64,000 nt of DNA from assembly GCA_963666675.1 (NCBI GenBank), contig OY762929.1, forward strand, positions 2,300,544-2,364,543, in the 5' to 3' direction. The number at the start of each line of letters is the position of its first letter. Position 1 is the first letter of the stretch. A program made the translations under genes and the position numbers. Under the pieces are notes generated by a model, which searched no databases, was not told the origin of the DNA, and saw only the letters and a program-made list of their open reading frames with translations. The stretch is from an uncultured Desulfobacter sp. (GTDB lineage: Bacteria > Desulfobacterota > Desulfobacteria > Desulfobacterales > Desulfobacteraceae). This document shows positions 4,425 to 52,691 of this stretch, piece after piece.

Positions 4425-4438
4425 GGGCGCTACAGGCG

Positions 4439-29046: not shown

Positions 29047-29196
29047 GTGTCCTTTCGGCAAGCCTGTGTAAATCAAAAAAATTAAGATAACATTCAAAAC
29101 AGACCCGATCCAAAAAAACAGTGTGTAAGGCGATGAGGGATAGTTTGCAGTGCAAAAATGTGTCTCAAAACATACTGGATTGGCTAAAAGGTCGTT

Positions 29197-30759: not shown

Positions 30760-30792
30760 GAAATGTGTGCTATCACATTTAAACTCTAATGT

Positions 30793-31577: not shown

Positions 31578-31644
31578 TGTTCAAGTTGGAACCGATAATA
31601 TCACCCGGTACTGGGTATTTCACGCAGGCTTACCGGAAGGACAC

Positions 31645-32804: not shown

Positions 32805-33046
32805 AGATGCCGTTCCTTTGTTAGAATCCATGTCCGGAACACCCAGTATTTACAGCTTTAGTTGAATACTGTGTGCCGCTGGCCCGGTGGCATCTGCCTT
32901 TGCTATAAAGCAACGGGTGTGCCAGTTGCTAAAAGAAATATTTATAAAATTATAACTATTTAAAAAAATAGTGATTATGACGAGTTTTGGGGCATTAGAA
33001 GCTTGACATGTGATATTTGCGTTTTGTAAAATATAGAAATATTGAT

Positions 33047-35984: not shown

Positions 35985-36652
35985 TCAAGACGAACAGCTA
36001 TAGTGTGAAACGCCGCCAACGTTAAAAAATGCCTCAGGTTTTAGACGATAATATTTATCTTCTACCCTCTGCGATTGCTCATCATATGGAGAGCTAAGAA
36101 CGTCTTGCAACTCCCTTACTAAGGTGTAGTCACCCAGCATGGCTTGTTGATAGGCGGGGGCAATCAACCACTCTCGCCATGCGTATTTGGGATTTGTTTG
36201 TTTCATTTTTGTCGATATCTCAGCCAAATTTCCGCCTTTGATAACAAGGTCGCGCCAGCTTTTCAGCCAAGATTGCCATTGCTCATCAAGTTGCTGAGAG
36301 TTCTTGTTATAGAAGCTCTTTTTCAAGGCGGAAATAGTCTCTGGTACATGGGATAATTCACGGAAGAAAATGGTGTAATCCACCTCTGATTTGGTCAGTA
36401 ACTGCATTAATCCCTGCACTATATTTGGTTGATAGTCTGTCAAGCCAAGCTTGGCGGCCCACATGTTTTGCATTTGTTTTTCCATTGCCGCTGCAAAACC
36501 ATGACGTATTTGATCCAATTGTTCCAAAGCTTGGGCATCTTTTGCAAGCAGCGGTCTCACTGTAGTCCAAAACATGTGGTAATTGGCTTCTGCTGCGGTT
36601 GGCTGATTGAAGAAGGAAAAGTGTTCTCCGCCCCCGGTCCATGGCTGAAACC
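35985..36652 (-). pseudogene. selO: selO (YdiU/UPF0061 protein adenylyltransferase) C-terminal fragment, split by IS66 copy 2
   Basis: Continues the SelO sequence after ...[17 protein letters not shown] with FNQPTAAEANYHMFWTTVRPLL.... The 5' part of the annotated ORF (to 36761) is IS-derived. Confidence 0.6.
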
Positions 36653-36802
36653 GTGTCCTTTCGGCAAGCCTGTGTAAATCAAAAAAATTAAGATAACATT
36701 CAAAACAGACCCGATCCAAAAAAACAGTGTGTAAGGCGATGAGGGATAGTTTGCAGTGCAAAAATGTGTCTCAAAACATACTGGATTGGCTAAAAGGTCG
36801 TT

Positions 36803-38365
36803 TTACAGATTATCAGCTGTTTCCCCTGATTTTTTAGCGATTGTGTTTTCAAATGACCACGGCAACCAGTCAGAAGGGTTTTGGAAGATCTCGGAAGAGT
36901 GCTTCTGTAGTGCGGTCAGGTATTCAAAGGGATTTATATTTTGCAGGTTGCAGGTATGTATCAGGCTCATGAACAGGTCGCCAATATAGGCACCGTGTTC
37001 GGTTTTATAAAATAATGAATTTTTTCGGTGCAGAATCGACTTTTTCAGCAATTGTTCGCAAAGATTATTATCCAGCGGTGCTCCAGGGATCTCCAGGAAA
37101 CGGGTCAATTCCTGCCAGTGATTCAACATATATGATATGGCCTTGCCCAGACTGGAGTTGGGTTCTACTTCTTTGTTTTCAAACTTGTCTTCCAGCCATA
37201 CTTTAAGCGCCCGCATCAGTGGACCGCTGTGGGTTTGATGATATTGAAGGCGTTGAGCATCGTCCAGGCCTTGCTCCCTTACCTTATGATCGTGCTCATA
37301 AATTTTAGCCACTGTATCAATTACATGGTCACACTCCTCAGGGAAATCGTCCATGACGTCGACAAAGTTACGGCGTCCATGCACGAGACAATTGCATAAT
37401 ATCGATTCAAAACCTTTTGGCAGATTCCTGGACAGAGCATCACACATCTGTATTGGCCGATCTTCTCTGGATCCCCGTTCTTTCAGAACCCTGGATAAAT
37501 TTTCTCCAGCATGATTGTGGCCGGTAAAAAACAGGGCAATCTTTCCTACGTCACATTCTGACAGGATTCCGGAAGTGAACATCCCTTTTCGCTTGGCTGC
37601 CTTGTCTGTTTCTTTTATCAAGGATAAAATTTTCATTGTCGTGTCGTCATTGTACAACACCTTGCCTTGTGCAGCCTGACGGACTAACTCTGTATATACC
37701 GGATGAATCTTGTCTGCTACGCTTTCGATGATTTCCCATTGGGTCGATGGGGGCAGCGGCATCCCCAGGCTAGCCTGAAGTTTGCCCAAGCGGTATAAAG
37801 GGACTCCGCTGCCATATTTTAGAAGGGCCAGCATGGCACCGGATTTGGCATCATATTTTTCTTTGCCCACATTGTCGGGCGCCTGGGCAGTAAAAATCTG
37901 CCCACAAAGGTTACACCGCAATCTCTGCAGTTCATATACTGTCGCCTGGAAGGGAGCACCGCCTGTTATCCGGACGATCTTGGCAGGTGGTTTTTCACCA
38001 TACAATTTACCTTTTTCACAGGCAGGGCAATCATTACCTGACTTAAGGCTTTGATGACAGATCTTGATCTTCTTGGCACCTTTATAGGCGTTTGCACCAT
38101 TTTTGCCGTGACCTTTTTTCTTCTTTTTTCGTTTCGGCCGGTTCTGCGGATTCGACGTTTTCTTCTTTTCGGTCTTATCGCCGAATACCATTTTTAATAA
38201 CCGTTTAATGGATGCTGCTTTTTCATTGGACAACGTATTCAAATAAGCAACGGTTTCAACCAATGCTTTGATCAACTCATAATCGCCGTCCTGCAGTTCA
38301 TTTGATCTTACCCGCTCAAGGAGCGCGTCAAGTTCGTCCTGCTTTATGTCCATCGTTTTTGACAT
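36803..38365 (-). CDS. IS66 transposase TnpC (copy 2; 2 aa differences from copy 1)
   Basis: Identical 520-aa translation except R/S and I/V substitutions. Confidence 0.8.
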   Translation of the reverse strand: MSKTMDIKQDELDALLERVRSNELQDGDYELIKALVETVAYLNTLSNEKAASIKRLLKMVFGDKTEKKKTSNPQNRPKRKKKKKGHGKNGANAYKGAKKIKICHQSLKSGNDCPACEKGKLYGEKPPAKIVRITGGAPFQATVYELQRLRCNLCGQIFTAQAPDNVGKEKYDAKSGAMLALLKYGSGVPLYRLGKLQASLGMPLPPSTQWEIIESVADKIHPVYTELVRQAAQGKVLYNDDTTMKILSLIKETDKAAKRKGMFTSGILSECDVGKIALFFTGHNHAGENLSRVLKERGSREDRPIQMCDALSRNLPKGFESILCNCLVHGRRNFVDVMDDFPEECDHVIDTVAKIYEHDHKVREQGLDDAQRLQYHQTHSGPLMRALKVWLEDKFENKEVEPNSSLGKAISYMLNHWQELTRFLEIPGAPLDNNLCEQLLKKSILHRKNSLFYKTEHGAYIGDLFMSLIHTCNLQNINPFEYLTALQKHSSEIFQNPSDWLPWSFENTIAKKSGETADNL

Positions 38366-38398
38366 GAAATGTGTGCTATCACATTTAAACTCTAATGT

Positions 38399-38746
38399 CT
38401 AGATTTTTTTCCACAAAAGTACATTATTTTTTTGAGGATTTCCGTTCCATATCAACATCTGTAATTCATGTGCAGCCAATGGGTGAATTTCATCTCCTCC
38501 CTTTTTAGGCCACCATTTAAAACGCCCCTTGCTCAATCTTTTTTGACAAAGCCAGAAGCCCTGGCCATCATATATTAGTATCTTCAGGGCAGTCCCCGGT
38601 TTGTTTCTGAAAACAAAAACATATCCGGAAAAAGGATTTTGTTTTAACACCCTGCGACAAACAGCTGCCAGGCCGTCGATCCCCTTTCGAAAATCAGCAG
38701 GAGTTACCGCCAGCATTATCCGCATTTGCGGTGTGATTTGGATCAT
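38399..38746 (-). CDS. IS66 Orf2 (TnpB), copy 2
   Basis: Identical to the 30793..31140 product. Confidence 0.8.
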   Translation of the reverse strand: MIQITPQMRIMLAVTPADFRKGIDGLAAVCRRVLKQNPFSGYVFVFRNKPGTALKILIYDGQGFWLCQKRLSKGRFKWWPKKGGDEIHPLAAHELQMLIWNGNPQKNNVLLWKKI

Positions 38747-39183
38747 GGAACACCAGCCAGTAAATATTTACCAAGGCTGATCACTGCCGGGTCTGCACGA
38801 CCTTTAAAACACATACGCATCTTAAAACCGGCCTGATTCTCCATTTCTATTATACAGTTGGTATCTTCCGGCGCTGGAGTGATCTCTATAAACAGGGGGG
38901 AGTCATCGTCTTCTTCAGGAGAATCGACTGTAGTACAATGAATGGCATTATAAATTTTTTGTTTTAATGTGGTATGATTAAGCCGTAAACTGTGGGCAAT
39001 CTTATTTATGCTCAGCCCTTGAGCATGGTGAAGGTCTGCTGCCGCCTGCCATAAATTATCCGGTATTCTTGACCTTCCGGTTCTGTTATTTCGCCAGTCT
39101 GCAAAAAGCTGCTGGACTTTTTCTAATGCGATTGATTGTTCTGCTGTCAATAATTGTTTATTCATCGGTCCCTCCATTAGCAA
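38743..39183 (-). CDS. IS66 Orf1 (TnpA), copy 2
   Basis: Identical to the 31137..31577 product. Confidence 0.7.
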   Translation of the reverse strand: MLMEGPMNKQLLTAEQSIALEKVQQLFADWRNNRTGRSRIPDNLWQAAADLHHAQGLSINKIAHSLRLNHTTLKQKIYNAIHCTTVDSPEEDDDSPLFIEITPAPEDTNCIIEMENQAGFKMRMCFKGRADPAVISLGKYLLAGVP

Positions 39184-39250
39184 TGTTCAAGTTGGAACCG
39201 ATAATATCACCCGGTACTGGGTATTTCACGCAGGCTTACCGGAAGGACAC

Positions 39251-40324
39251 GAAGGAAAAGTGTTCTCCGCCCCCGGTCCATGGCTGAAACCCGGGGTCGA
39301 AAATTTCACAGAATCCAAATGGTCCATAGTCGAGGGTAAAGCCGCCGGCAGCGCAGTTGTCACTATTAAAATTACCCTGGCAGTACCCAATACGCTGCCA
39401 ATTGGCCACTAATGACGTTAGCCGCCTGCGAAAAACCTTTGCCAACTCAACCACTTGATCCGTAAAAAAAAGGTCTTGATTGATATCGTTTTGGTATTCC
39501 CGGTCAATTAAATGCGATACAATCATGCGCAACTCTTCCAAGGCGCCTGGATGGGCATTGCCGCGAACCCGGCGGGCAAATAACTCTAACTGGCCAACGC
39601 GCAAAAAAGAGGGTGCAACGCGGGTTGAAATAGCCACAGGATTATCCATCATAATGTCAGGATCGGTGGAATGGGAGTCTTGGGCGTACCAGGGCCGGGC
39701 AACGCGCTCAGATTTTGATACATACAGGGTTAAAGATCGTGTTGTGGGAACCCCCAGGGCGTGCATATACTCTTGGGCGAGGAACTCACGCACACTTGAA
39801 CGAAGTACTGCACGCCCGTCGGCGCCACGGCAATAAGGCGTTGGACCACCGCCCTTTAGCTGCATTTCCCAACGCTGTCCTTTGAATACCCCTTCAAATA
39901 CTGATATCGCCCGACCATCGCCATAACCATTACCGGTTCCAAATGGACATTGTTGGGTATATTCGGTGCCGTAGATTGACAGGGCATAGCCAACGGACCA
40001 GCCAATTTTACGCATAGGCTTTTGCGCGGCTGAAATATCACCGGAAAATACCCGGCAAAATTTCGGATCATTTACCAACGCGTCGTTCAACCCAAGTTCA
40101 TTAAAAAAAGTCCTGCTATGGATTACATATTCCGGGTCCGGAAGCGGCGTGGGCCTGACCGGTACGAAGTGACCGGAAAATACCTGGCGGGCACGGTGGT
40201 CATCCCCATCTCCTGTGGCATCAGGATCGGCCTTTAAGGTGTCCATCAAAGAATAATCGGCTAATCTCACAAACTCGTCGAAAGTCGATATGCGCTCCTG
40301 AGCAGATGGCTTAGATAATGTCAT
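39251..40324 (-). pseudogene. selO: selO N-terminal fragment (kinase-fold adenylyltransferase domain)
   Basis: 358 aa ...[43 protein letters not shown]...[12 protein letters not shown] match conserved SelO/YdiU motifs. The last 4 codons of the ORF are IS-derived. Confidence 0.6.
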
Positions 40325-41642: not shown

Positions 41643-43523
41643 ATGAATATTGAATTACAGGAAATACGCAGCTTTCTGGCAAACATTCATCCATTTGACC
41701 TATTGCCGGAAAAAACGTTGTCCGACTTGCCGGAAAAGCTACAGACACGTTATTTTCGAAGAGGTTCCGAAATACCCGATACCGGAACCCTGTTTGATCA
41801 CCTTTACCTGATCCGTACCGGAACGGTGGAACTTAATACTTCAGACGGTGAGCTACAGGCCCGCCTCGGTGAAAATGATATGTTTGGATATCGTTCATCC
41901 CACGTCGGTGGCCGGGACAAACTCAAAGCATTTGCCATGGAGGACACCCTGGTATATCAGCTCCGCGCTGCTGATCTATACAGGATTTGCCATGAAAATG
42001 TCCAGCGCCACAGGTTCTTCGATACCTCCGATGACGTGCAAAGTAGACGGCAGCGTGAAACCACAAGCCTGTTCAGTCAAAGTGATCGGACCCAGCTCAA
42101 TTTGATGCTTACACCGGTCAGGGAACTGTTGCGCCGCACCCCGGTCAAATTACCGGTTACTGCCACTATAGATGAGACTGTCAAGGTAATGCGCCAAAAG
42201 CGTGTCTCTTCAGTCCTGATATACCACGAACCAGAACGCCGCCAAAAAAAACTGGTCGGGATTGTTACCGACCGTGACCTGCGCAACCGGGTTATTGCCA
42301 AGGACCTGGATCTTGACGACAGAGTAAGTGAAATCATGACCGAGAACCCGGTTACGATTAACAGCAGCGATTTTGTTTTTAAAGCCCAGCTTCAAATGGT
42401 CCGCTACAACGTCCATCATATGCCGGTAATGGCCGACAACCGCCCGGCGGGCATGATTACCACCACGGATCTCACCAGAGCGCACACCTGCCCTACGGTC
42501 TCTATTATTGGTGATATCTACAAACACACTGATATTGATAGAATAAAGGAGGTAACGGCAAAGATTCCCGAGCTGCTGGTCAATTTGATTGCCTCCGGAG
42601 CAGCAGCCATGAGCATAGGGCGCCTGATTACGTCTATCACAGATGCAGTCACTATCCGCCTGCTTGAGTTGGCAGAAAAAAGGCTGGGGCCTGCTCCCGT
42701 GGCCTACGCCTGGGTTGCCGCAGGTTCCCAGGCCCGGGAGGAACAGATAGCCAAGACGGATCAGGATAATATCCTGATCCTGGCGGATGATTACATTCCA
42801 AAAGCGCATAGCAAATACTTCAGTCTGCTGGCCGGACATGTCTGTGATGGACTCAACGCCTGTGGCTACATTTACTGTCCCGGCGACATGATGGCAACCA
42901 ACTATGATTGGCGCCAGCCCCTGAAAATCTGGAAAAAAAATTTCAATCAGTGGATTGACCGGCCTGAGCCCGAAGCCCTGATGCTGACCAGTGTGTTTTT
43001 TGATTTACGTTGCATATACGGCAACCGCAGCCTGTTTCAAGACCTGCGTGATCATGTATTAGGTAAGACCCGCGACAATCAAATATTCCTGGCCCATATG
43101 ACAATGAACGCGCTTTCTCACCAACCACCGCTGGGCTTTTTCCGTAATTTTATATTAATCAAAGGCGGAGAACACGACCAAACATTTGATATCAAGCTCA
43201 ACGGCATTATCCCCATTGTGGACCTTGTCCGCGTCTACGCCCTTGCCCGGTGCAGCACCGCAACTAATACCCTGGATCGCCTTGATCTGATGAAAAGCAG
43301 CAATGCGATCTCTACCGAGACTGCCGGGGATCTGCACGATGCGCTTGAGTTTATCAGCAATCTGCGCATTCAGCACCAGGCAGGGCAGGTCAGGGCCGGC
43401 AAGAAAATGGACAACTTTGTGTCACCGGACACCCTTTCTCACGCTGATCGCAACCGCCTTAAAGAAGCATTCCTGGTGATTCGTAACATGCAGTCAGTGA
43501 TGAAGTATCGATACCAGCGGTAG
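41643..43523 (+). CDS. cNMP-binding + tandem CBS + DUF294 putative nucleotidyltransferase signalling protein
   Basis: 626 aa. N-terminal cNMP-binding-like region, two CBS motifs (VSSVLIYHE.../HHMPVMADN...), C-terminal DUF294/DUF294_C architecture. Confidence 0.6.
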   Translation: MNIELQEIRSFLANIHPFDLLPEKTLSDLPEKLQTRYFRRGSEIPDTGTLFDHLYLIRTGTVELNTSDGELQARLGENDMFGYRSSHVGGRDKLKAFAMEDTLVYQLRAADLYRICHENVQRHRFFDTSDDVQSRRQRETTSLFSQSDRTQLNLMLTPVRELLRRTPVKLPVTATIDETVKVMRQKRVSSVLIYHEPERRQKKLVGIVTDRDLRNRVIAKDLDLDDRVSEIMTENPVTINSSDFVFKAQLQMVRYNVHHMPVMADNRPAGMITTTDLTRAHTCPTVSIIGDIYKHTDIDRIKEVTAKIPELLVNLIASGAAAMSIGRLITSITDAVTIRLLELAEKRLGPAPVAYAWVAAGSQAREEQIAKTDQDNILILADDYIPKAHSKYFSLLAGHVCDGLNACGYIYCPGDMMATNYDWRQPLKIWKKNFNQWIDRPEPEALMLTSVFFDLRCIYGNRSLFQDLRDHVLGKTRDNQIFLAHMTMNALSHQPPLGFFRNFILIKGGEHDQTFDIKLNGIIPIVDLVRVYALARCSTATNTLDRLDLMKSSNAISTETAGDLHDALEFISNLRIQHQAGQVRAGKKMDNFVSPDTLSHADRNRLKEAFLVIRNMQSVMKYRYQR

Positions 43524-44562
43524 ACCAGGAATTATGTCAATCTGACACTATCTGTTCAGCCTTGACAATTGTCCAGATCACCTTGCCTTGGAATTAATGC
43601 TACTCGGCATTACCTGTCTTCCCTTTTGCCGTCTGTATATTGGGAAACCGGCCCTGTTCCGCCCACAGCATGGTGTAATGGAGGGCGACAAATTTTTTTT
43701 CCGGGGCAGGTTCAGCCAGATCTGAAACAGCTCAAGTGGGTTGGGTTTGTCCTTCTGCATGTTTTTGCTCTGCATTAATATTCGAATCACTTTCTGAGTG
43801 CTCCTACATATACTCTGTTACTATTACCGGTTCCATCATGGCTACGGCGGTGATCAGGAAAGAGTCCATGAAGATATCAAAAACATTTCCTGGCAGGCCT
43901 TGTTTTTTAATATCGAAATAGATTAGCGGGCTTCCTTTTTTTAATATTTTAGGGGTTCTCACAACGGTTCAGTGGTTTCATCTTTTAAGAATACGGAAAG
44001 CAGAAACGAATGGCCTTGTAGGCTGGTAATGAATGTGAATCTTAATTTTGAGTTTTGGATTCGGTTTCCGGGCTCCATCCAATATGTTACAAAATGATTA
44101 AAAGTAAGCTACCCAAACCATCTTACTTGACAAAAATTAAAATTTATTGATACGCCCTTTTTAGAGTGCTCCAAAAGTATATATTGATCTTTTCCAATCT
44201 GTTGCGCCGCCTCTGCAGCTGAGCCAGAACTCCAATTACCAAAGCCGCTTGCCCTAAATGAAGCATTTTGACGTTTCCACAGAGAAGGCAATGGCTTTAA
44301 AGTTTTTAAAATAGAATCCTTTGCTACTGTTATACGTAGCTGATATTGGAATGATGGTTTAATACTTTGAAACTGCCATATTTTGTTCAAATTTCGCAAT
44401 ATTGTTAATATTAGCCCTATGTTTGATAAATTAACTTCAGCCTGCCCATTCCCGACGAGTTGTATTCATGGCCACGGACTGCCAAAGCATTCCGCTGAAA
44501 CACTCGATCGGTTTTATAGATTCGGCACATTAAACAGCTTAAAAAAATCAAAGGAAAAGTAA

Positions 44563-45110
44563 ATGAAAAAGGGAAAAGTCTTATCGTGTATTTTTATTAT
44601 TATTTTTTCTGTTTGCATAAAAATAAATCCTATCTTAGCATCGGATTCTCCAATTTTTGAGGATAATTTCGACGTTACAAACAATTGGTCTGCAGATAAT
44701 GGAGTATGGGAAGTTGGTATACCGACCAGCGGACCGGGAAGCGCCAATAGCAGCACAAATTGTGCTGGGACAATTTTAAATGGTAATTATCCTGATAATA
44801 CGGACAGCCGTCTTATTGGACCCTTTCGTTCCCCTTGGGATCAAGGTATTGAGCTTCCCGAGGTGACTGGAGATGAAGAGATCCGCCTGCGTTTTTGGCA
44901 CTGGTTTTCCTATTCCAACTATAATTACCCCAACCATTATGACCGGTATGACAAAGGACATGTCCAAGTCGATGTTTTTGACGAAGATACAGGCAGTTGG
45001 CCGGGAAACTGGCAGACTTTGGGCAGTGTTCAGGCGTATTCACCTGTATGGTCTTTGATGAGTGTGGATCTCACCGCTTTTGCCGGTCAGAAAATCAGGA
45101 TTGCATTCTA
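44563..45110 (+). pseudogene. 5' fragment (signal peptide + first ~175-aa beta-sandwich repeat) of secreted repeat protein, truncated by transposon insertion
   Basis: MKKGKVLSCIFIIIFSVCIKINPILA signal. Repeat sequence identical to units in 48103..50160. Diverges from the repeat consensus after ...QKIRIAFY at about 45109. Confidence 0.6.
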
Positions 45111-45355
45111 TTGTTAATTCTTTCCCTACAGTACCTCTATATCATCTAAAAATCCCACCTATCGTTACATTTTCTGAGAAAATAATGAGCTTGTTAAATA
45201 AGATTTTTTAAAAAAGAAAAGGCACATCGGTAGACAGCAGGAACCGCCCGATGCCTTGGCATCCTCCTCCCCCCCTTTGGGGGGGATAAGAGGGGGGGAT
45301 TGTGGTATAGATTAAGTTCGCCAAAACCATCACCACCACAACCCCGACCCTGCTT

Positions 45356-45853
45356 ATGAAAGAAAGCATAATAAGAAATCAGTCATCTGCCAAGGAAAAA
45401 CAACAGGTTCGTTGCTGCCATTGTTCGAGTTCTTTGACCATCCGTAACGGAACCTATCCGCGAAATCATCCCCAAGACGACACAGAAATAAGGGTTCAGC
45501 GCTATTTGTGCAAATCGCCCCTGTGTCCATGGAAAAGTTTTTCTGTTCTTCCTGAATCCATCATGCCGGTCGTCCGTCACACCCTTGAGGCGATATGCTG
45601 CTGCGCAGCCATGGTCAGTGCCGGAATGAACCAGGCACAGACGGCAAGATTCTTTGGGTGCACCCGGGGTGTTGCTAAACGGCTCAGGATCTTTTCTCAA
45701 AAATTCATGCCCTGGTTTTCCCGGGAAAAGACTGTTGCCGAATGGGGGCCGGATCCGCCCTCCTTCTGGCCGGACTTTACCAGGGATGTTTCCCAGAGTT
45801 TTTTCCCTGGAAGATGGGTTAAATTACCATCAACACAAAACATACATTGTTAA
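45356..45853 (+). CDS. Cys-rich zinc-ribbon protein (transposon accessory)
   Basis: 165 aa with CCHCSSS...CKSPLCPW cysteine clusters. Confidence 0.35.
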   Translation: MKESIIRNQSSAKEKQQVRCCHCSSSLTIRNGTYPRNHPQDDTEIRVQRYLCKSPLCPWKSFSVLPESIMPVVRHTLEAICCCAAMVSAGMNQAQTARFFGCTRGVAKRLRIFSQKFMPWFSREKTVAEWGPDPPSFWPDFTRDVSQSFFPGRWVKLPSTQNIHC

Positions 45854-45911
45854 ATTACAGTCGGTTATGTTGATATGCCACCAATTCCAACTATCAATTA
45901 AGGAGGTGGTC

Positions 45912-47117
45912 ATGCCAATACCTGACCCAGCCGATCTCGCTGTCTGGCGATACGGCATTATCAGCAGTCTTCTTCATCGAAATGAAGAGGTAGAGACCAT
46001 GGAGGAGGCACTGATCAGAATTGCCGGAGTTCAGTATCGCCGGCCTGACGGTCAATTTGTGTCCTTTTCTCCGGAAACCTTAAGAAAATGGTTTTATCGT
46101 TATCGGAACGGCGGCCTGCCGGCGTTAAACGATGCCCAAAGAAAAAACACCGGCACCCACCATGCCGTACCCAGGGCGATCTCGGACCGATTGTTTCAAC
46201 TGCGGCAGGAACATCCCAGATGGACTTTTGCCCGTTTGATCGAACAGCTGGTTCAGGATAAAGTCTGGGATATGCAGTCTCCGGCCCGTTCCACGCTTTA
46301 TCGCTTTGCCCGGACATGCAACCTTCAACGAGATCCCCATTTGACGGTGCATGATCCGGCTCGACCCTTTCAATATCAGTTCTTTGGTCAAATGTGGACT
46401 GCAGACTTTCTTCACGGCCCAAAGATCAGAGTGAACAGCCAAAAACGCAAAACCTATCTGCATGCCATTATTGACGATGCCACAAGATATGTGGTTCATG
46501 CCGGTTTTTTTACCAGTGAGGGCACCGAGGTAATGATGATGGCACTGATGGCCACCGTTCGAACCCATGGCAAGCCGCGTCGGTTCTATACGGACAACGG
46601 GGCCTGTTACGCAAGCAAGCATCTTAAATTTGTTTGTGCCAACCTGGGTATCCATCTGATCCATACGCCGCCGGGCCAACCCAGGGGAAGGGGTAAAGTG
46701 GAACGATTCTTCCGGACCGTCCGGGATCAGTTCCTTGAGGGCAAAAATGCCCCGGCCCATACTCTGGACGGGTTGAACAAGGCCTTTTCACAATGGCTGT
46801 CGACTTATCATCGGCGTATTCACAGCAGCCTGGGCATGACCCCTTTGCAGAAACGGCTTGGGCATCAAAGTGCCTGCATCCCTCTACCGGAAACGATTGA
46901 TATCGAGCCTTTATTTAGAATGAAGCGCCGGTGCAAAGTTTACCTGAATAATACCGTCAGGCTTAAAAAGCGGTCCTATGAGGTGGCAGACGCCTTACCC
47001 GGCCAGCGCCTCGACATCTGGTTTATGCCATGGAACCTTGACCGAATCTGGTACGGACCGGAAATGAAACCGGCCAAACCAATTGATCCCATCCAAAACG
47101 CATATAGAGGGAGGTAA
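45912..47117 (+). CDS. DDE (rve/Mu-like) transposase, IS21 IstA / TniA-like (start at MPIPDPADL after RBS aaggagg)
   Basis: N-terminal HTH, central integrase-core region (...WTADF...IDDATRY...YTDNG...), C-terminal Mu-transposase-C-like segment (RSYEVADALPGQRLDIWF...RIWY). Confidence 0.6.
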   Translation: MPIPDPADLAVWRYGIISSLLHRNEEVETMEEALIRIAGVQYRRPDGQFVSFSPETLRKWFYRYRNGGLPALNDAQRKNTGTHHAVPRAISDRLFQLRQEHPRWTFARLIEQLVQDKVWDMQSPARSTLYRFARTCNLQRDPHLTVHDPARPFQYQFFGQMWTADFLHGPKIRVNSQKRKTYLHAIIDDATRYVVHAGFFTSEGTEVMMMALMATVRTHGKPRRFYTDNGACYASKHLKFVCANLGIHLIHTPPGQPRGRGKVERFFRTVRDQFLEGKNAPAHTLDGLNKAFSQWLSTYHRRIHSSLGMTPLQKRLGHQSACIPLPETIDIEPLFRMKRRCKVYLNNTVRLKKRSYEVADALPGQRLDIWFMPWNLDRIWYGPEMKPAKPIDPIQNAYRGR

Positions 47118-47119
47118 TC

Positions 47120-47956
47120 ATGCAAGACACCCATACCATAGAACAGGCGCCCATGGCCGATTTTTTTGGCTGGAAGTACCATCCCTTTGCCGACACCTAT
47201 GAACAGCGCAAACTCTGGCTACCCAAAGAGGACCTGCGCAAACTCGATACCATAAAACGTTTGCTGCACCATGGCAAAAGCACCGCACTGTGCGGCCCTT
47301 CAGGGACCGGAAAAACCACCTTGATTCATGCATTGGTATCGGATCTGGATCGAAATGCATACCTCCCGGTTATGCTGCCCTATGCCGGTCATCCAAGAAA
47401 CGGACTGACACGCATTCTTGCCCAGACCCTCGGGGGGGATATCAAAAGCCGGGGAATGCCTTTGATTACAAGGGTTCAGCAGCATATTGAATCCTTATCC
47501 AACCAGGCCAACTCACGTCATCCGGTGCTGATCGTCGATGATGCCCAGCGCATCGAATCCGACTCCCTCTGGGATCTTTGCTCTCTTCTGGTCCAAACCT
47601 CTAAACAGAGAAGCGCAGCCTCCCTTATCCTTGTCGGGGACGACTCTCTGTTCAGGCAACTTCGACTTTATGCAATGGCACCGATACGATCCCGGCTCAC
47701 CGGCATTATGAAAATTAATGCCATGAACGAGTATGAAACCCAGCATTTTATCGAAATCCGTCTTAAAAATGCACAAGCTCCATCGGACCTGTTTACCAAA
47801 GAAGCAATGGATTTGATCGCAAGTTCCACCCGGGGAAACAGACGGGGCGTAATGAATATGGCGACGATCTGTCTTGAGGAGGCCTATTATCACAATGAAA
47901 AAAATGTGACCGCCGAGCTCATTTACAACTCGGAATGGTTCAACGAATCTGAGTGA
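47120..47956 (+). CDS. AAA+ ATPase partner of transposase (TniB/IstB/ExeA-like)
   Basis: 278 aa. Walker A GPSGTGKTT, Walker B ILIVDDAQ. Immediately downstream of the transposase. Confidence 0.6.
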   Translation: MQDTHTIEQAPMADFFGWKYHPFADTYEQRKLWLPKEDLRKLDTIKRLLHHGKSTALCGPSGTGKTTLIHALVSDLDRNAYLPVMLPYAGHPRNGLTRILAQTLGGDIKSRGMPLITRVQQHIESLSNQANSRHPVLIVDDAQRIESDSLWDLCSLLVQTSKQRSAASLILVGDDSLFRQLRLYAMAPIRSRLTGIMKINAMNEYETQHFIEIRLKNAQAPSDLFTKEAMDLIASSTRGNRRGVMNMATICLEEAYYHNEKNVTAELIYNSEWFNESE

Positions 47957-48027
47957 AACGGAAGCGCTTGAGAGGGGACTCCGGCGCCAGGGATAACTCA
48001 GTGCGGTAGACTGCTGTCTACATGATT

Positions 48028-48060
48028 AAAGCCGGGAGGGCAAAAGCTCTCCCGGCTTTT
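48028..48060 (+). terminator. Rho-independent terminator after transposon ATPase gene
   Basis: gccgggagggcaaaagctctcccggc hairpin followed by ttttctg. Confidence 0.45.
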
Positions 48061-48128
48061 CTGTAATCAATTGCCAGCCGGGTAATCAAACCTGAGATTT
48101 TTATGGGATTAGCTCGTCGGAATCTACA

Positions 48129-50160
48129 CTATCACACTGAAAGCAGGAACAGTAATTATCCGTCAACCAGTACCGGCTGGTATATTGATGACATCCAAAT
48201 TATAAAAATGGAGCCGGAATTCAGTGGTGACTTTGAGATGGGATGGGAAGACTGGTCGGCAGATAACGGCGTGTGGGGGGGTGGAACACCCACTGGGGGG
48301 CCCGAAGGATGTTATAGTGGCGATCAATGTGCCGGAACTATTTTGGATGATAAGTACCCTTCATTTACCGATAGCCGTTTAGTAAGCCCGACTTTGGCTC
48401 TTCCCAAAACTGTAGCAAATGAAGAGATCCGCCTGCGTTTTTGGCACTGGTTTTCCTATTCCAATTATAATTACCCCAACCATTATGACCGGTATGACAA
48501 AGGACATGTCCAAGTCGATGTTTTTGACGAAGATACAGGCAGTTGGCCGGGAAACTGGCAGACTTTGGGCAGTATTCAGGAGTATTCACCTGTATGGTCT
48601 TTGATGAGTGTGGATCTCACCGCTTTTGCCGGCCAAAAAATCAGGATTGCATTTTATCATACCGAAGGTAGGCATTATAACTATTCTTCCGTTAAGGCCG
48701 GCTGGTATATTGATGACATCCAAATTATAAAAATGGAGCCGGAATTCAGTGGTGACTTTGAGATGGGATGGGAAGACTGGTCGGCAGATAACGGCGTGTG
48801 GGGGATTGGAACACCCGCTGGGGGGCCCGAAGGATGTTATGGTGGCGATCAATGTGCCGGAACTATTTTGGATGGTAAGTACCCTTCATTTACCGATAGC
48901 CGTTTAGTAAGCCCGACTTTGGCTCTTCCCGAAGCTCTAGCAAATGAAGAGATCCGCCTGCGTTTTTGGCACTGGTTTTCCTATTCCAATTATAATTACC
49001 CCAACCATTATGACCGGTATGACAAAGGACATGTCCAAGTCGATGTTTTTGACGAAGATACAGGCAGTTGGCCGGGAAACTGGCAGACTTTGGGCAGTGT
49101 TCAGGAGTATTCACCTGTATGGTCTTTGATGAGTGTGGATCTCACCGCTTTTGCCGGCCAAAAAATCAGGATTGCATTTTATCATACCGAAGGCAGGCAT
49201 TATAACTATTCTTCCGTTAAGGCCGGCTGGTATGTTGATGACATCCAAATTATAAAAATTGAGCCGGAATTTAGTGGCGACTTTGAGATGGGATGGTTAG
49301 GCTGGCTGGCAGATAACGGCGTGTGGGAGATTGGAACACCCGCTGGGGGGCCTGAAGGATGTTATGGTGGCGATCAATGTGCCGGAACTATTTTGGGTGG
49401 GAATTATCCCAATTATACCGACAGCAGGCTTGTCAGCTCCCCCATTGACCTGACTGAATGTTCGCAGCAAGTAGTCTATCTGCAGCTTAATGAATGGTTC
49501 TCTTCTCCCGATGACTTTGGAGAAATCCAGATATCCACTTGGGATTTTGAAACTAGACAGTGGTCTACCTGGAACACTGAGAGTACCAGTTCAGGCCTAT
49601 CTCCAGTATGGACATTAAAATATGTTGATCTATCCGCTTATTCAGGAAAACTTTTCAAAATTGGTTTTCATCATGTAGCGAACAGTTCATCCACGAGCCA
49701 TGGCTGGTTTGTTGATAACATTGAACTTGTAGGCCCTGAGCAGATAATGCCAACAATTAAATCTATCTCTTTTTCTTCTTACATACCGGATTGCACATCG
49801 CTGATAGATATTTTTGCCAGCGATCCCTGCGGTGGAGGGTTAACCTATACATGGCAGCTTCCCGACGGAGGAACCCTTGAAGGAACAGAAGGGAATATGG
49901 AATTTATTCCCCCAGAGTTTAGGGTTGAACCATATAGAGTCCGTGTTGCCGCTTCATCAAACTCTACACAAATTAACTCGTATACGAAAACTCTTAAAAT
50001 ATTCACCCAAGTAGTATACGACCTTGATAGCGATGATGATATTGATGGATCTGATCTATCAACGTTCCTAACAAACGAAGAAGTTAATGCAACAACGATT
50101 TCACGATTTGCCGAGGAGTTCGGCATGATAGCCTGTGAGCATTATAGCAGAAATCTTTAA
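48129..50160 (+). pseudogene. 3' portion of secreted tandem-repeat protein (3 more ~175-aa units, a divergent 4th beta-sandwich unit, Cys-containing segment and dockerin-like C-terminus)
   Basis: In-frame continuation of the repeat (HTESRNSNYPSTSTGWYIDDIQ...). C-terminal VVYDLDSDDDIDGSDLSTF is a dockerin/EF-hand-like Ca-binding motif. ORF track 48103..50160. Confidence 0.6.
48175..49750 (+). repeat. 525-bp tandem direct repeats x3 (units 1 and 2 >95% identical at DNA level) within repeat-protein gene
   Basis: ggctggtatattgatgacatccaaattataaaaatggagccggaattcagtgg recurs at 48175, 48700, 49225. The antisense ORF artefacts are also duplicated. Confidence 0.8.
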
Positions 50161-50575
50161 ACTCACAGGGAAGGTCAGGGAGGGCTCTGCCTCGCCCTTC
50201 CTGAGCCATTAAAACCGTGTGTCTCGCATTTCGTCTTGACCCTTAATGCAAATCACATCGCCAGAAGAGACGTGAGTAATGCCAAGGTCCACAAATGGTA
50301 TTTAAGGACTCCCAAGCCAATTATTTTGCTTTTTCTCGGCAAGAATTCTATTATAACAATCAATTTTTAAATAGGATAGACGAATTTGAACAACAACAGG
50401 CTTGTCCAATTTTGCGTCTGATGGTGAAATGTTAATGAAAGTCCCCAAACCCTCATATTAGCATTATGAATTTTTCGGCCGACACAAATAAAAAGGGCGG
50501 TATAACTGCCTGTTTTTTAAGGAACTGCGCAAAAAACCGGTCCAATTAAATCTGGATTTTGCCGGCGTAACACTG

Positions 50576-51168
50576 TTGTCCGGATTTATCCTCGGTTTTT
50601 TAATTTTGATTATGGTGGGTGGGCGTAAATTTGCCTGGGTTTCATTTCCCATGATATATTGCCGGACGAAAAATGCATTGGATCGGGCAGAAAAAAGCAA
50701 CGTTTACGGTGTGATTTTCATGGTGATCGGCACCGGTCTGACATTGGGGTTTTCACGCACAACAACCTAGCCCAGTGTTTCCTTGCTTTCCAGGTCGTTG
50801 GGTTGGGCATGGGATTTACAACCCTGTCCACATTACTTATTGTGCAGAACAGCGTAGAGACCAAAAAACAGGGTGTGGCGCCTCTTTTCATCAATTTGCC
50901 CGGACCATGGGCGGGGGCTATCGGGGGCGGTCTGTGCGGCGGCATTGTAACGGCACGGCTTATCAACTGCCTAAAGACTGCCGGGCATCGTCTGCCGGAA
51001 CCGTTGATTGCACGATTGCAGGAGAGTCTGGCGATCCTTTTCCAGAAAGAATTTCAGTCCCAGATCCCGGAATCAATGACAGGCATTCTTCAGGATGCGG
51101 TTTTAAACGGTGTTTCTCTGGCTTGTGTCTATTATCAGTGTCGGGCTGATATCTTTGCTTCCCCGTAA
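50576..51168 (+). pseudogene. possible remnants of an MFS (DHA2-like) transporter gene, frameshifted
   Basis: Two overlapping frames encode TM-like segments (GFILGFLILIMVGG...; VVGLGMGFTTLSTLLIVQNS...GAIGGGLCGGIVTARL). No intact long ORF. Confidence 0.25.
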
Positions 51169-51371
51169 TTAAGGGGGAGGGGCGTATTTTTGTAGGAGAT
51201 GGAAATAATTTTGAAAAAAGCCGAATGGAAATGTTCGTGACAATATGAAACAAACGAGCCGATTTTATACCTTACTATTTTTAAAGGGGAGGAAAGATAC
51301 TGATTGCGAATCTTAAATGTTTAATCCTTCTTTGGGGAATCAACCTGACACCGGTCCTTTTAGCCTATCTT

Positions 51372-52691
51372 TTGGAAGGAAAATGGAATGCCCCGGTTGA
51401 CAGAAGGATGAAATGGCGTGATGGTCGGCCTTTTCTTGGCAACCACAAAACCATCCGGGGTGTGGTCGGGGGGATTTTAGCCGGCGGTGCCGGCGCTCTG
51501 ATCCTAAACCTGCCCCTGCCGATTGGACTGTGGACCGGGGTGCTTAGTATGGCCGGGGATCTTTTGAACAGCTTTATTAAGCGTCGTCTGGGCAAAACAG
51601 AGGGGCAGGAATTCCTTGTCATGGATCAATTCCTGGAAGGGGCATTGCCTTTGGTCGCCTTGGTCTTGTCGGCCCGGATATCCCTGGTTGGCGGCATACT
51701 TCTTCTTTTGATTTTTGTTGTAACGGCCCATGCAGGGGCCAAGTTTTTGAACCAGGTGCTTAGAGCCGAACCCTTTGCCGGATACACCCGCCGACTGAGG
51801 TCCAGGACCCGGTTCAGGGAATGGCGTGGGTGTCAGACCATCGAGTATCCCTTTCATCCCGTCATTAACCTCGAGCGGACCCTGTATTACCACGCCTTTA
51901 TGAAAACGGTGTTTAAAGGGTTGGGGCTTTATGAACGCGGAAAGCACAATGCCTTGGATATCCATTGCCGGGAACTTGCGTTTGTTTTCCCCGATCTTCC
52001 CCCTGTCTTTGATCAATATACGATTTTATTCATATCCGACCTTCATCTGGACTGTATGGCGGGGATTACTGAAAAGGCAAAGGATATTGTATCTGAATTG
52101 AGTCCGGATCTCTGTATCCTTGGCGGGGATTACCGGACCGAAGTTTGGGGGTCTTATGCCATGGCTTTAGATAATATTGAAAATCTTCTTACCGATATCC
52201 GTCCCAAAGACGGCATTTTTGCGGTCCTGGGCAATCATGACTGTCTGGAAATGGTCACCCCGCTTCGCAAAAAAGGGGTGCAGTTTTTGGTGAATGACAA
52301 TGCTGCCATTGAGAGGTCCGGAGAACGGATCTGGATCGCAGGGGTGGATGATCCGTTCTATTTTGAAGGCCATGACCTTGATCAAGCCTTTAACGGCATT
52401 CCGGAAAACGGGTTTTCCATTTTAGCTGCCCATACCCCGGCAATTTTTAAGGCTGCGGCAGGTTTTGGACCCAATCTCTACCTTTGCGGCCACACCCATG
52501 CCGGACAGGTACAGATTCCAGGAATCGGACCGGTGATCACCCATGCTAAGGTTCCCCGGAAAATGGTCCATGGCCAATGGCAATTCGGGGCCATGAAAGG
52601 GTATACTAGTTCTGGATTAGGCACCTCCGGGATTCCGGTCCGGTTCGGTTGCCGGGGAGAGGTGACGCTGATTAGTCTGAAAAGATCCTAA
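51372..52691 (+). CDS. membrane-anchored metallophosphoesterase with N-terminal CdsA/CTP-transferase-1-like TM domain
   Basis: N-terminus: KTIRGVVGGILAG and TM helices like CdsA family C-terminal region. C-terminus: calcineurin-like motifs (ISDLHLD, GGDY, LGNHD, GHTH). Confidence 0.55.
   Translation: MEGKWNAPVDRRMKWRDGRPFLGNHKTIRGVVGGILAGGAGALILNLPLPIGLWTGVLSMAGDLLNSFIKRRLGKTEGQEFLVMDQFLEGALPLVALVLSARISLVGGILLLLIFVVTAHAGAKFLNQVLRAEPFAGYTRRLRSRTRFREWRGCQTIEYPFHPVINLERTLYYHAFMKTVFKGLGLYERGKHNALDIHCRELAFVFPDLPPVFDQYTILFISDLHLDCMAGITEKAKDIVSELSPDLCILGGDYRTEVWGSYAMALDNIENLLTDIRPKDGIFAVLGNHDCLEMVTPLRKKGVQFLVNDNAAIERSGERIWIAGVDDPFYFEGHDLDQAFNGIPENGFSILAAHTPAIFKAAAGFGPNLYLCGHTHAGQVQIPGIGPVITHAKVPRKMVHGQWQFGAMKGYTSSGLGTSGIPVRFGCRGEVTLISLKRS

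What the first reader, a model, noticed from the sequence alone, without database searches (positions are those of the whole stretch)
44563..50160. Secreted protein built from near-identical 525-bp tandem repeats with a dockerin-like C-terminus, interrupted by a transposon
Each roughly 175-aa unit (GWYIDDIQI...FSGDFEMGWEDW...CAGTILDGKYP...EIRLRFWHWFSYSNYNYPNHYDRYDKGHVQVDVF...) looks like a galactose-binding-like/MAM-like beta-sandwich carbohydrate or ligand-binding module. Units 1-2 are >95% identical in DNA, implying recent expansion or concerted evolution. The tail has a DLDSDDDIDGSDL Ca-binding dockerin-type motif, which is unusual for a non-cellulolytic deltaproteobacterium. A 3-kb transposon split the gene after the first repeat, leaving a signal-peptide fragment and a promoterless remainder.
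Basis: partly seen in the sequence, partly recalled or inferred. Interest (0 to 1): 0.6.

Follow-up and report, generated by a model that had tools for sequence, protein, structure and literature searches.

The report
Repeat surface protein gene split by IS
This is a gene for a secreted protein made of four MAM-like "choice-of-anchor J" binding modules with a calcium-loop tail, recently knocked out by a 3-kb insertion sequence; it belongs to a protein family that is widespread in environmental bacteria, so it is a well-described example, not a new kind of system.

Summary
ORFs 44563-45117 and 48103-50160 are two halves of one gene. Removing 45112-48128 and one copy of the 4-bp duplication CTAT restores an uninterrupted 858-aa protein. 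Its parts are a Sec-type signal peptide, four about 175-aa units, a PKD/Ig-like domain and a 51-aa tail.

The units pass the curated thresholds of NCBIfam choice-of-anchor J and Pfam InhA-like MAM. A confident model (pLDDT 93) is closest to MAM domains, reelin repeats and carbohydrate-binding modules.

About 2.9 copies of a 525-bp period are 95-98% identical, offset from the domain borders. Orthologues have 2-4 units with similar within-protein similarity of interior units, which fits lineage-specific unequal recombination.

The tail has a conserved EF-hand/dockerin-type calcium loop. It sits where family members P0031 and P0033 carry true two-repeat dockerins. But it has only one loop, misses Pfam Dockerin_1, and matches a Cys-bracketed "DxDGDVDGxDL..F..FGR..C" module instead.

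The insertion is an IS481-like element with three genes. A second copy (99.5% identical, same ends, 5-bp duplication) lies on an unrelated contig.

Verdict: a new member of a known kind, of low to moderate interest.

The parts
44563..45111 (+). 5' fragment of the disrupted gene. It encodes a signal peptide (44563-44640, MKKGKVLSCIFIIIFSVCIKINPILA|SD) and unit 1 up to residue 183. The frame stops two codons into the insertion, giving the 184-aa ORF 44563-45117.
   Evidence: ORF list. Reconstruction. Hydrophobic core after a KKGK n-region. Orthologues have similar N-termini.
45108..45111 (.). Left copy of the 4-bp target-site duplication, CTAT.
   Evidence: Read directly from the sequence.
45112..48128 (+). 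3017-bp insertion sequence with ends TGTTAATTC... and ...GAATCTACA.
   Evidence: Homology to an independent copy on L005 (ENA ERZ21831251:ctg3386l) starts exactly at 45112 and ends at the same terminal ...TCTACA (BLASTN runs 3 nt further, to 48131, because both duplications start with CTA); 99.5% identity over 3021 aligned columns. That copy is flanked by CTAAC.
45356..45853 (+). Small Cys-rich ORF of the element (165 aa), DUF6431-like.
   Evidence: BLASTP E 5e-6 to the DUF6431 protein upstream of the IS481-family transposase on Geobacillus plasmid pGS18. Weak IS1/IS1595 zinc-finger hit.
45912..47117 (+). DDE transposase (401 aa from the ATG at 45912; the mechanical ORF starts at 45654).
   Evidence: Pfam rve 54 bits, HTH_32, rve_3, weak Mu-transpos_C. 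NCBIfam IS481 193.6 bits, below the 224 cut-off. tblastn matches start at residue ~95 of the long ORF. The 401-aa product is on record on two contigs.
47120..47956 (+). AAA_22 (ExeA/TniB-like) ATPase of the element.
   Evidence: Pfam AAA_22 64.8 bits. 30% identity, E 1e-24, to the ATPase that follows the pGS18 transposase.
48030..48062 (+). Strong hairpin followed by UUUUCUG near the right end of the element. It looks like an intrinsic terminator.
   Evidence: Fold of 48020-48075 gives -29.2 kcal/mol, z -7.3 against shuffles.
48129..48132 (.). Right copy of the target-site duplication, CTAT.
48133..48207 (+). End of unit 1: the linker and last strand ...GWYIDDIQIIK, now separated from the rest of unit 1.
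   Evidence: Unit borders from an HMM of the four units.
48211..48732 (+). Unit 2, a choice-of-anchor J / MAM-like domain.
48736..49257 (+). Unit 3, a choice-of-anchor J / MAM-like domain. This is the unit that was modelled.
49261..49734 (+). Unit 4. Its N-terminal half belongs to the near-identical tract. Its C-terminal half is divergent but orthologous across relatives.
49753..50004 (+). PKD/Ig-like seven-strand domain.
   Evidence: AlphaFold2 strands E19-E102 of the 153-aa C-terminal model, pLDDT about 90. Foldseek hits to PKD domains at E about 5e-3. Sub-threshold Pfam PKD hits in 11 of 22 orthologues.
50005..50157 (+). C-terminal tail: calcium-loop motif DLDSDDDIDGSD (50020-50055), two helices, then FAEEFGMIAC (50107-50136). 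The stop codon is at 50158-50160.
   Evidence: The invariant columns match EF-hand positions 1, 5, 7, 8, 9, 10 and 12, and A.EFG..AC is also invariant. Helices at 117-126 and 131-140 of the model. hhalign probability 96% to Cys-bracketed DGDVDG..DL..F..FGR..C modules.

Best explanation
**What it is.** The locus held a single gene for an exported, probably cell-surface or matrix-associated, binding protein of an uncultured Desulfobacter.

**Domain order.**
- A Sec signal peptide.
- Four tandem choice-of-anchor J domains (MAM-like jelly-roll beta-sandwiches).
- One PKD/Ig-like spacer domain.
- A 51-residue tail: one EF-hand/dockerin-type calcium loop, two helices, and an invariant FA.EFG..AC end.

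**How it most likely works (inferred).** The four sandwich domains give multivalent binding to a polymer or a protein partner. The calcium-loop tail holds the protein to a partner in the envelope or exopolysaccharide matrix. It occupies the slot where two family members (P0031, P0033) carry a true dockerin.

**The repeats (shown).** The interior of the array is about 2.9 copies of a 525-bp segment, offset by roughly 0.6 of a domain from the unit borders. This pattern fits unequal recombination or gene conversion. The first N-terminal part and the last C-terminal part remain the conserved, orthologous edges.

**The disruption (shown).** A 3017-bp IS481-like element inserted 25 codons before the end of unit 1 and duplicated CTAT. 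It carries a DUF6431-like gene, a DDE transposase and an AAA ATPase.

**Consequence (inferred).** The gene is now dead for its original role. The 5' piece encodes a signal peptide plus an incomplete domain. The 3' piece has no signal peptide and lies behind a terminator-like hairpin inside the element.
For: - **One gene, split.** In-frame restoration to 858 aa, with the junction matching the other unit borders.
- **A real, mobile element.** An independent copy on L005 shares the exact left end and the same terminal ...TCTACA at the right end, and has its own 5-bp duplication. All three genes are homologous to a three-gene unit on plasmid pGS18.
- **Repeat dynamics.** The identity profile is. 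Synonymous differences are 0.05-0.16 per site, with pN/pS about 0.4-0.5. In 22 orthologues, the nearest neighbour of 19/22 first-unit N-halves is another first unit. For 20/22 last-unit C-halves it is another last unit. Most interior and first-unit C-halves (16/21 and 13/22), and about half of interior N-halves (11/21), are nearest to a unit of the same protein. Unit number is 2-4 in the orthologues and 2-6 across the family.
- **Tail.** The invariant residues fit an EF-hand loop with Asp at position 12 and Ile at position 8. The predicted helix starts at loop position 10. P0031 and P0033 have the same PKD-like domain followed by a Pfam-positive dockerin at the same junction. Tail-like modules end unrelated passengers, always at the extreme C-terminus.
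- **Surface or matrix context in relatives.** Two of three orthologous loci lie in exopolysaccharide/PEP-CTERM neighbourhoods with dockerin-bearing and similar-tailed proteins.
- **Source.** WP_319393903.1 from an uncultured Desulfobacter sp.; the longest contig on record for the 685-aa ORF product is 6.48 Mb.
Against: - No ligand or partner is known. No cohesin was detected in the window or next to the orthologues.
- The tail fails every dockerin model that was tested.
- The window locus lacks the exopolysaccharide neighbourhood seen around the orthologues. The protein may therefore act alone.
- The signal peptide was judged by eye and hydropathy only.
- Loss of function is inferred. Transcription was not measured. 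The promoter and terminator scans were no better than shuffles.
Confidence: 0.75

Rival explanations
1. The C-terminal tail is not a docking module. It is instead a sorting or processing signal, or simply a calcium-stabilised structural cap on the PKD-like domain, perhaps pinned by a disulfide between the invariant terminal Cys and the invariant Cys at the start of the PKD-like domain.
For: - The tail always sits at the extreme C-terminus, and the protein ends 1-7 residues after the invariant AC.
- Other family members carry genuine sorting signals at the C-terminus, for example the type IX secretion domain PF18962.
- The two invariant Cys residues are compatible with a disulfide.
- No cohesin was found.
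Against: - There is no hydrophobic helix or basic tail of the kind seen in the PEP-CTERM neighbours.
- Family members P0031 and P0033 carry real dockerins at the same junction.
- The loop fits a calcium-binding consensus.
Confidence: 0.25
2. The units are carbohydrate-binding modules. The intact protein was a non-catalytic polysaccharide-binding protein, for capturing or organising exopolysaccharide, and not a protein-protein adhesin.
Against: The top hits are reelin repeats and MAM domains (several of them in cell-surface receptors), and the curated family is MAM-like. No glycoside hydrolase or lyase lies nearby.
Confidence: 0.35
3. The split gene still works. The 184-aa signal-peptide fragment, or a protein started at the ATG inside the element's right end (48103), would keep some function.
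For: Both halves are free of further stops or frameshifts. ORF 48103-50160 starts inside the element.
Against: - The 5' product lacks the last strand of its only domain.
- The 3' product has no signal peptide.
- A hairpin at 48030-48062 with z -7.3 precedes it.
- Intact halves are expected after a recent insertion, and the two copies of the element are 99.5% identical.
Confidence: 0.07
4. The insertion or the repeat array is an assembly artefact.
For: The source is an uncultured, metagenome-derived genome. Exact-match scans found neither the empty site nor other copies in two collections.
Against: - The insertion has a target-site duplication and restores the frame precisely.
- Another assembly holds a copy with the same element ends.
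- The repeats differ by 2-5%, so they can be resolved.
- The longest contig on record for the 3' ORF product is 6.48 Mb.
- Orthologues show the same repeat architecture.
Confidence: 0.03

Closest known systems
Choice-of-anchor J domain proteins (NCBIfam NF038128) / InhA-like MAM domain (Pfam PF20773)
   Same: All four units match above the curated cut-offs. Like other members, the protein is secreted, carries several tandem units, and ends in a variable C-terminal module. Relatives end in dockerins, type IX secretion domains, Cys-bracketed calcium-loop modules and others.
   Different: This subfamily has its own fixed C-terminal cassette of a PKD-like domain plus a single-loop tail. Here the gene is interrupted. 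The domain family has no experimentally defined ligand. In the paper library the name appears in only 5 papers, and I judged these from their titles and abstracts only.
Eukaryotic MAM domains (PTPmu/PTPRK, neuropilin-1, enteropeptidase, scavenger receptor C) and reelin subrepeats
   Different: Sequence identity is only 10-20%. These are bacterial tandem arrays, and homophilic adhesion was not tested.
Type I dockerin (Pfam PF00404) of cellulosomal and non-cellulosomal proteins
   Same: A 12-residue loop D-x-D-x-D-x-D-I-D-G-x-D followed by a helix, with Asp at position 12 as in dockerin F-hands. It is C-terminal. It occupies the position of true dockerins in P0031 and P0033.
   Different: There is one loop instead of two. 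No Pfam hit at E<=1 in any of 22 members. hhalign probability is 5%. It has an extra FA.EFG..AC motif. No cohesin is known.
Cys-bracketed 'C.GDFD.DGDVDG.DL..F...FGR..C' C-terminal modules of environmental secreted proteins; I know of no curated model for them
   Same: hhalign probability 96%, E 1.8e-9, over the loop and first helix. They share the FG...C ending and are also C-terminal.
   Different: The tail here has a 7-17 residue spacer that splits the helix in two. It lacks the leading Cys and is present once, not twice. These double modules themselves reach only 15 bits on Dockerin_1.
IS481-family insertion sequences; three-gene unit on Geobacillus stearothermophilus plasmid pGS18 (DUF6431 protein, IS481-family transposase, AAA ATPase)
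   Same: An rve-type DDE transposase whose best match is the IS481 model. TGT...ACA ends. Short duplications starting with CTA. Same gene order and homology for all three genes.
   Different: It scores below the IS481 equivalog cut-off (193.6 bits against 224). It carries two accessory genes that classic single-gene IS481 elements lack (that comparison is from my own knowledge).

Membership tests
Choice-of-anchor J domain (NCBIfam NF038128) | Score at or above the curated cut-off of the domain model | tested here: met
   85.4 bits against a cut-off of 30, E 4.6e-24, four matched stretches.
InhA-like MAM domain (Pfam PF20773) | Score at or above Pfam's gathering threshold | tested here: met
   49.2 bits against 26.9, four stretches. 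Most homologues carry the precomputed PF20773 hit.
MAM / carbohydrate-binding jelly-roll fold | Beta-sandwich fold that superposes on solved MAM domains | tested here: met
Type I dockerin (Pfam PF00404) | Score at or above the gathering threshold of Dockerin_1 | tested here: not met
   No hit at E<=1 for the whole protein or for any of 22 orthologous C-termini. No hit at E<=10 for the tail alone.
Type I dockerin (Pfam PF00404) | Two tandem ~22-residue calcium-binding F-hand repeats | tested here: not met
   Only one loop is present (residues 813-824). The second helix region has no acidic loop. hhalign against 9 true dockerins of the same protein family and its neighbourhood gives 5% probability.
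Type I dockerin (Pfam PF00404) | Calcium-loop consensus D-x-[DN]-x-D-x-x-[IV]-[DN]-x-x-D followed by a helix | tested here: met
   In the 153-aa C-terminal numbering, D108, D112, D114 and I115 are invariant. D116, G117 and D119 are conserved in at least 90% of sequences. A helix is predicted at 117-126.
Type I dockerin (Pfam PF00404) | A cognate cohesin partner | tested here: inconclusive
   No cohesin hit in the immediate window flanks or the small proteins of L002, and no window homologue of the L002/L003 neighbours. The 235-aa neighbour in L002 has a real dockerin but an unassigned N-domain. The rest of the genome could not be searched.
IS481 family insertion sequence | Transposase reaches the NCBIfam equivalog cut-off (NF033577) | tested here: not met
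   193.6 bits against a cut-off of 224. IS481 is still the best-scoring IS family.
IS481 family insertion sequence | DDE (rve) transposase, defined ends (TGT...ACA here), and short target-site duplication | tested here: met
   rve 54.3 bits. Ends TGT...ACA. Duplications CTAT (window) and CTAAC (L005). The ends are fixed by two copies in different contexts.
PKD domain | Score at or above Pfam's gathering threshold, or a PKD-like fold | tested here: inconclusive
   Pfam PKD 15-16 bits, below the 23.5-27 cut-offs. The model is a seven-strand sandwich with Foldseek E about 5e-3 to PKD domains 4xed, 6aem and 2yrl.

The most novel reading that the evidence does not exclude
The conserved C-terminal cassette is a PKD-like domain plus a single calcium loop, a split helix and FA.EFG..AC. 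It could be an undescribed 'half-dockerin' anchoring module.

- **It is rare.** Among 1.84 billion representative proteins, 217 match the tail profile at E<=0.001. About 24 of the 150 listed match nearly its whole length (profile positions 1-3 to 45-46), all of them ending within about 3 residues of the C-terminus.
- **It ends several unrelated passenger domains.**
- **It has a suggestive context.** In orthologous loci it co-occurs with PEP-CTERM proteins, exopolysaccharide export genes, a small true-dockerin protein and subtilases with related tails.

If it binds a dedicated receptor in a calcium-dependent way, it would define a non-cellulosomal matrix-assembly system in sulfate-reducing Desulfobacterota.
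Probability: 0.2. Interest if true: 0.5.

Novelty: new member of a known kind. Interest (0 to 1): 0.22.

Why it matters
The case is mainly useful as a clean, fully resolved example.

- **Repeat evolution.** A tandem-domain surface protein has a repeat array that grows and shrinks by recombination offset from the domain borders. Its edges stay orthologous.
- **Recent knockout.** The gene was knocked out recently by an insertion sequence that is still mobile.
- **Annotation.** The public record lists only a 650-aa 'hypothetical protein' for the 3' piece (WP_319393903.1). It should be treated as part of an IS-disrupted pseudogene.
- **Open questions.** The binding target of choice-of-anchor J domains is unknown. 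So is the role of single-loop calcium tails in non-cellulolytic anaerobes. This locus offers well-defined constructs for testing both.

Tried and rejected
- **Tandem Repeats Finder.** It found nothing because the 525-bp period exceeds its limit. The repeat finder and BLASTN replaced it.
- **Exact-match scans.** The left end of the element in genome contigs gave nothing. The reconstructed empty site in metagenome contigs gave nothing.
- **Relatives in species-representative genomes.** The search for related loci with the 858-aa protein in genome contigs found none.
- **Exact protein look-ups.** The ATPase, P0001 and the 685-aa ORF were not on record. The empty-site allele and repeat-number variants within the species therefore remain untested.
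- **Tail-profile word search.** It returned only five short fragments. The exhaustive representative search was more useful.
- **Sequence search of the C-terminal profile against PDB.** It gave only sub-threshold hits: an Ig domain at E 0.048, calmodulin at 0.3, a dockerin at 0.88.
- **Foldseek on the C-terminal model.** The Ig part dominated, so the tail could not be judged.
- **Rfam scan of 43400-51400.** It found no riboswitch or other RNA: one chance-level hit at E 0.49.
- **Promoter and terminator consensus scans.** The counts matched those of shuffled sequence.
- **Divergent linker next to the insertion.** I considered whether HTESRNSNYPSTST (against HTEGRHYNYSSVKA) resulted from the insertion. 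I rejected this because a close orthologue, P0013 (69% identical), has the same type of linker (HTESRDSNTSSVST).

Full report

Yes. The ORF list shows a 184-aa ORF (44563-45117) and a 685-aa ORF (48103-50160) on the + strand. Both contain the quoted motifs.

The repeat finder reports two direct-repeat families with 525-bp spacing: 48130/48655/49180 and 44854/48400/48925. Tandem Repeats Finder missed them only because its longest period is 500.

The measured identities are:
- In domain register, units 2 and 3 are 94.9% identical in DNA and 91.4% in protein.
- BLASTN of the window against itself gives 95.9% over 729 nt (48173-48900 vs 48698-49425).
- The last 239 nt of the upstream fragment are 97.5-97.9% identical to both downstream copies.

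A sliding comparison at lag 525 shows that the near-identical tract runs from about 44875 to about 49400, leaving out the insertion. That is roughly 2.9 copies.

**2. One gene, split by a mobile element**

The left fragment ends ...ATTGCATTCTAT|TGTTAATTC. The right junction reads ...GAATCTACA|CTATCACACTGAAAG. Joining 44563-45111 to 48133-50160 gives an uninterrupted 858-aa protein. Its junction (AFY|HTE) matches the other unit borders.

The inserted 3017 bp (45112-48128) starts TGT, ends ACA, and is flanked by a CTAT duplication. It encodes three proteins:
- **A small Cys-rich protein** (45356-45853).
- **An rve-type DDE transposase.** Its best family match is IS481, at 193.6 bits, below the 224 cut-off. 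It also has a weak Mu-transposase C-terminal hit.
- **An AAA_22 ATPase**.

tblastn against plasmids shows that the transposase homology starts near residue 95 of the long ORF. The 401-aa product that starts at 45912 is on record elsewhere.

That other record is a 5.8-kb ENA contig (L005). It holds a copy that is 99.5% identical. The similarity starts exactly at window position 45112 and ends at the same terminal ...TCTACA (BLASTN runs 3 nt further, to 48131, because both duplications start with CTA). This copy is flanked by a different duplication, CTAAC, in an unrelated context next to a TPR gene. This fixes the ends of the element independently and shows that it moved recently.

The same three-gene layout occurs on Geobacillus plasmid pGS18: a DUF6431 protein, an IS481-family transposase and an AAA ATPase. 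All three proteins are homologous to those of the window element.

A 13-bp-stem hairpin followed by UUUUCUG lies at 48030-48062 (-29.2 kcal/mol, z -7.3). Read-through from the element into the 3' fragment is therefore unlikely.

**3. What the protein is**

The reconstructed protein matches NCBIfam choice-of-anchor J (85.4 bits, cut-off 30) and Pfam InhA-like MAM (49.2 bits, cut-off 26.9). Each model matches four stretches. An HMM built from the four units delimits them at residues 29-208, 210-383, 385-558 and 560-717.

The fold alone cannot say whether the ligand is a glycan or a protein.

The N-terminus (MKKGKVLSCIFIIIFSVCIKINPILA|SD) has the charge, hydrophobic-core and small-residue pattern of a Sec signal peptide. 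This is read from the sequence and a hydropathy calculation. No dedicated predictor was available.

**4. The family and the repeat dynamics**

A database search found 439 relatives.
- The identical 650-aa C-terminal piece is WP_319393903.1, a 'hypothetical protein' of an uncultured Desulfobacter sp. The 685-aa version is on record with a longest contig of 6.48 Mb.
- Relatives have 2-6 units.
- Their C-terminal ends vary widely: canonical dockerins, type IX secretion domains, double Cys-bracketed calcium-loop modules and others. This variety is what the name 'choice-of-anchor' refers to.

Twenty-two proteins share the whole architecture of the window protein, including the tail. I cut their units (2-4 per protein) into N- and C-halves.
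- For 19 of 22 first-unit N-halves, the nearest neighbour is another protein's first unit.
- For 20 of 22 last-unit C-halves, the nearest neighbour is another protein's last unit.
- The C-halves of interior and first units are mostly nearest to a unit of the same protein (16/21 and 13/22). Interior N-halves are so in about half the cases (11/21).

The edges of the array are thus orthologous. Its interior tends to be amplified or homogenised separately in each lineage, in a register offset by roughly 0.6 of a domain from the unit borders.

In the window gene the three copies differ by 0.05-0.16 per synonymous site, with pN/pS about 0.4-0.5. This fits recent unequal recombination or gene conversion under continued, somewhat relaxed, constraint.

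The linker next to the insertion differs from the other two linkers. It resembles the linker of a close orthologue, P0013 (69% identical). It is therefore an older variant and not damage from the insertion.

**5. The C-terminal region**

The last 153 residues were modelled with 21 orthologues (pLDDT 82). The model has three parts:
- a seven-strand sandwich, with weak PKD/Ig matches (Foldseek E about 5e-3, Pfam PKD sub-threshold);
- a loop;
- two helices.

In the orthologue alignment the invariant or nearly invariant tail residues are D108, D112, D114, I115, D116, G117 and D119. These are positions 1, 5, 7, 8, 9, 10 and 12 of an EF-hand loop. Asp at position 12 and a helix starting at position 10 are as in dockerin F-hands. 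A.EFG..AC near the end is also invariant, and the proteins stop 1-7 residues later.

Two family members (P0031, P0033) have the same PKD-like domain followed, at the same junction, by a Pfam-positive two-repeat dockerin. The tail therefore occupies a dockerin slot.

Membership in the dockerin family fails, however:
- There is only one loop.
- No Dockerin_1 hit appears at E<=1 in any of the 22 proteins.
- Profile-profile comparison with nine true dockerins, taken from the family members and their neighbours, gives only 5% probability.

The tail does match the Cys-bracketed module C.GDFD.DGDVDG.DL..F..FGR..C at 96% probability, E 1.8e-9. These modules end other family members and the subtilases in orthologous loci. 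They reach only 15 bits on Dockerin_1 themselves.

An exhaustive profile search of 1.84 billion representative proteins found 217 matches at E<=0.001.
- About 24 of the 150 listed match nearly the full profile (positions 1-3 to 45-46), and each of these ends within about 3 residues of the C-terminus.
- Most of the others match only the loop-plus-helix part, often twice.
- Some matches end unrelated passengers: Cys-rich repeats in P0192, and other domains in P0176, P0203, P0160 and P0145.

The tail therefore behaves as a portable C-terminal module. It has no curated model in Pfam or NCBIfam.

**6. Context**

In the window the gene stands alone. A cNMP/CBS/DUF294 nucleotidyltransferase gene lies upstream and a CarS-like metallophosphoesterase gene lies downstream. 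There is no homologue of the orthologues' neighbours anywhere in the 64 kb. No Rfam element lies in the 1-kb AT-rich leader.

Two of three orthologous loci (L002, L003) sit in an exopolysaccharide/PEP-CTERM neighbourhood. It contains:
- Wzz/GNVR and a CbiA-type kinase, plus polysaccharide-export and outer-membrane barrel genes in L003;
- small PEP-CTERM-type proteins;
- a 235-aa protein with a true dockerin (Pfam 25.5 bits; PDB 2y3n_B E 0.001);
- S8 peptidases, a CarboxypepD_reg-repeat protein (L002) and an FG-GAP protein (L003), several with related tails.

No cohesin was detected. A surface or matrix role for the family is therefore plausible but inferred.

**7. Mechanism and rivals**

*Shown:*
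- the domain architecture;
- the recent amplification or homogenisation of the repeats;
- the insertion, with its duplication and independently confirmed ends.

*Inferred:*
- export by the Sec pathway;
- multivalent binding by the four sandwiches;
- calcium-dependent attachment through the tail;
- loss of function after the insertion.

*Rivals:*
- The tail is a sorting signal or a structural cap (0.25).
- The units bind carbohydrate instead of protein (0.35; this is compatible with the main account).
- The fragments keep some function (0.07).
- The arrangement is an assembly artefact (0.03).

**8. Comparison, novelty and score**

This is a member of the choice-of-anchor J / InhA-like MAM family. 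It resembles a dockerin-bearing protein but does not qualify as one. It is interrupted by an IS481-like element.

Dockerin-type modules outside cellulosomes are well documented (Peer et al. 2009, cited in PMC5244752). The window also carries two IS66 copies, one of which splits selO. Gene disruption by insertion sequences is therefore routine in this genome.

- **Novelty:** new member of a known kind.
- **Interest:** about 0.2.
- **Most novel reading not excluded:** the single-loop tail cassette is an undescribed calcium-dependent anchoring module tied to PEP-CTERM/exopolysaccharide loci. I give it a probability of about 0.2 and an interest of about 0.5 if true.

Noticed in passing
window 29047-31644 and 36653-39250: Two direct copies of a 2598-bp IS66-family element, 99.9% identical, each with a 520-aa DDE_Tnp_IS66 transposase. 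They bracket about 5 kb that includes an RtcR-type sigma-54 activator gene (33017-34651). The arrangement could be a composite transposon.
   Followed up: partly
window 35985-36761 (-) and 39236-40324 (-): A selO (protein adenylyltransferase) gene appears to be split by the second IS66 copy. One ORF matches SelO profile positions 18-276 and the other matches 284-462. This would be a second IS-disrupted gene in the same window.
   Followed up: partly
window 45112-48128; L005 1467-4482; L004 (pGS18) 1775-4523: The element has a three-gene layout: a DUF6431-like zinc-finger protein, an IS481-like DDE transposase and an AAA_22 ATPase. The layout is conserved between a Desulfobacter genome and a Geobacillus plasmid. 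tblastn also gave transposase hits of about 34-35% identity on Streptomyces and Mycobacterium plasmids. Both duplications seen (CTAT, CTAAC) start with CTA. Whether this is a named IS subgroup was not checked.
   Followed up: partly
L002 5538-8663 and L003 4935-6879: Orthologous loci hold a conserved cluster of small secreted proteins. Several end in PEP-CTERM-like signals (IPIP/VPIP...LLLGGGLLG..RR). A 235-aa protein has an unassigned beta-rich N-domain and a true type I dockerin. An IS200-like Y1 transposase homologue is conserved next to them in both loci.
   Followed up: partly
P0192, P0176, P0203, P0160, P0145 (protein ids): Unrelated secreted proteins end in the same kind of module: a calcium loop, a spacer and FA.EFG...C at the extreme C-terminus. 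Neither Pfam nor NCBIfam has a model that reports it.
   Followed up: partly
window 43524-44562: About 1 kb of AT-rich (36-43% GC) non-coding DNA lies upstream of the gene. It has no Rfam match and no convincing ORF.
   Followed up: partly
window 50138-50157: The window protein continues 7 residues (EHYSRNL) past the invariant terminal Cys. The 21 orthologues stop 1-4 residues after it. The significance is unknown.
   Followed up: no
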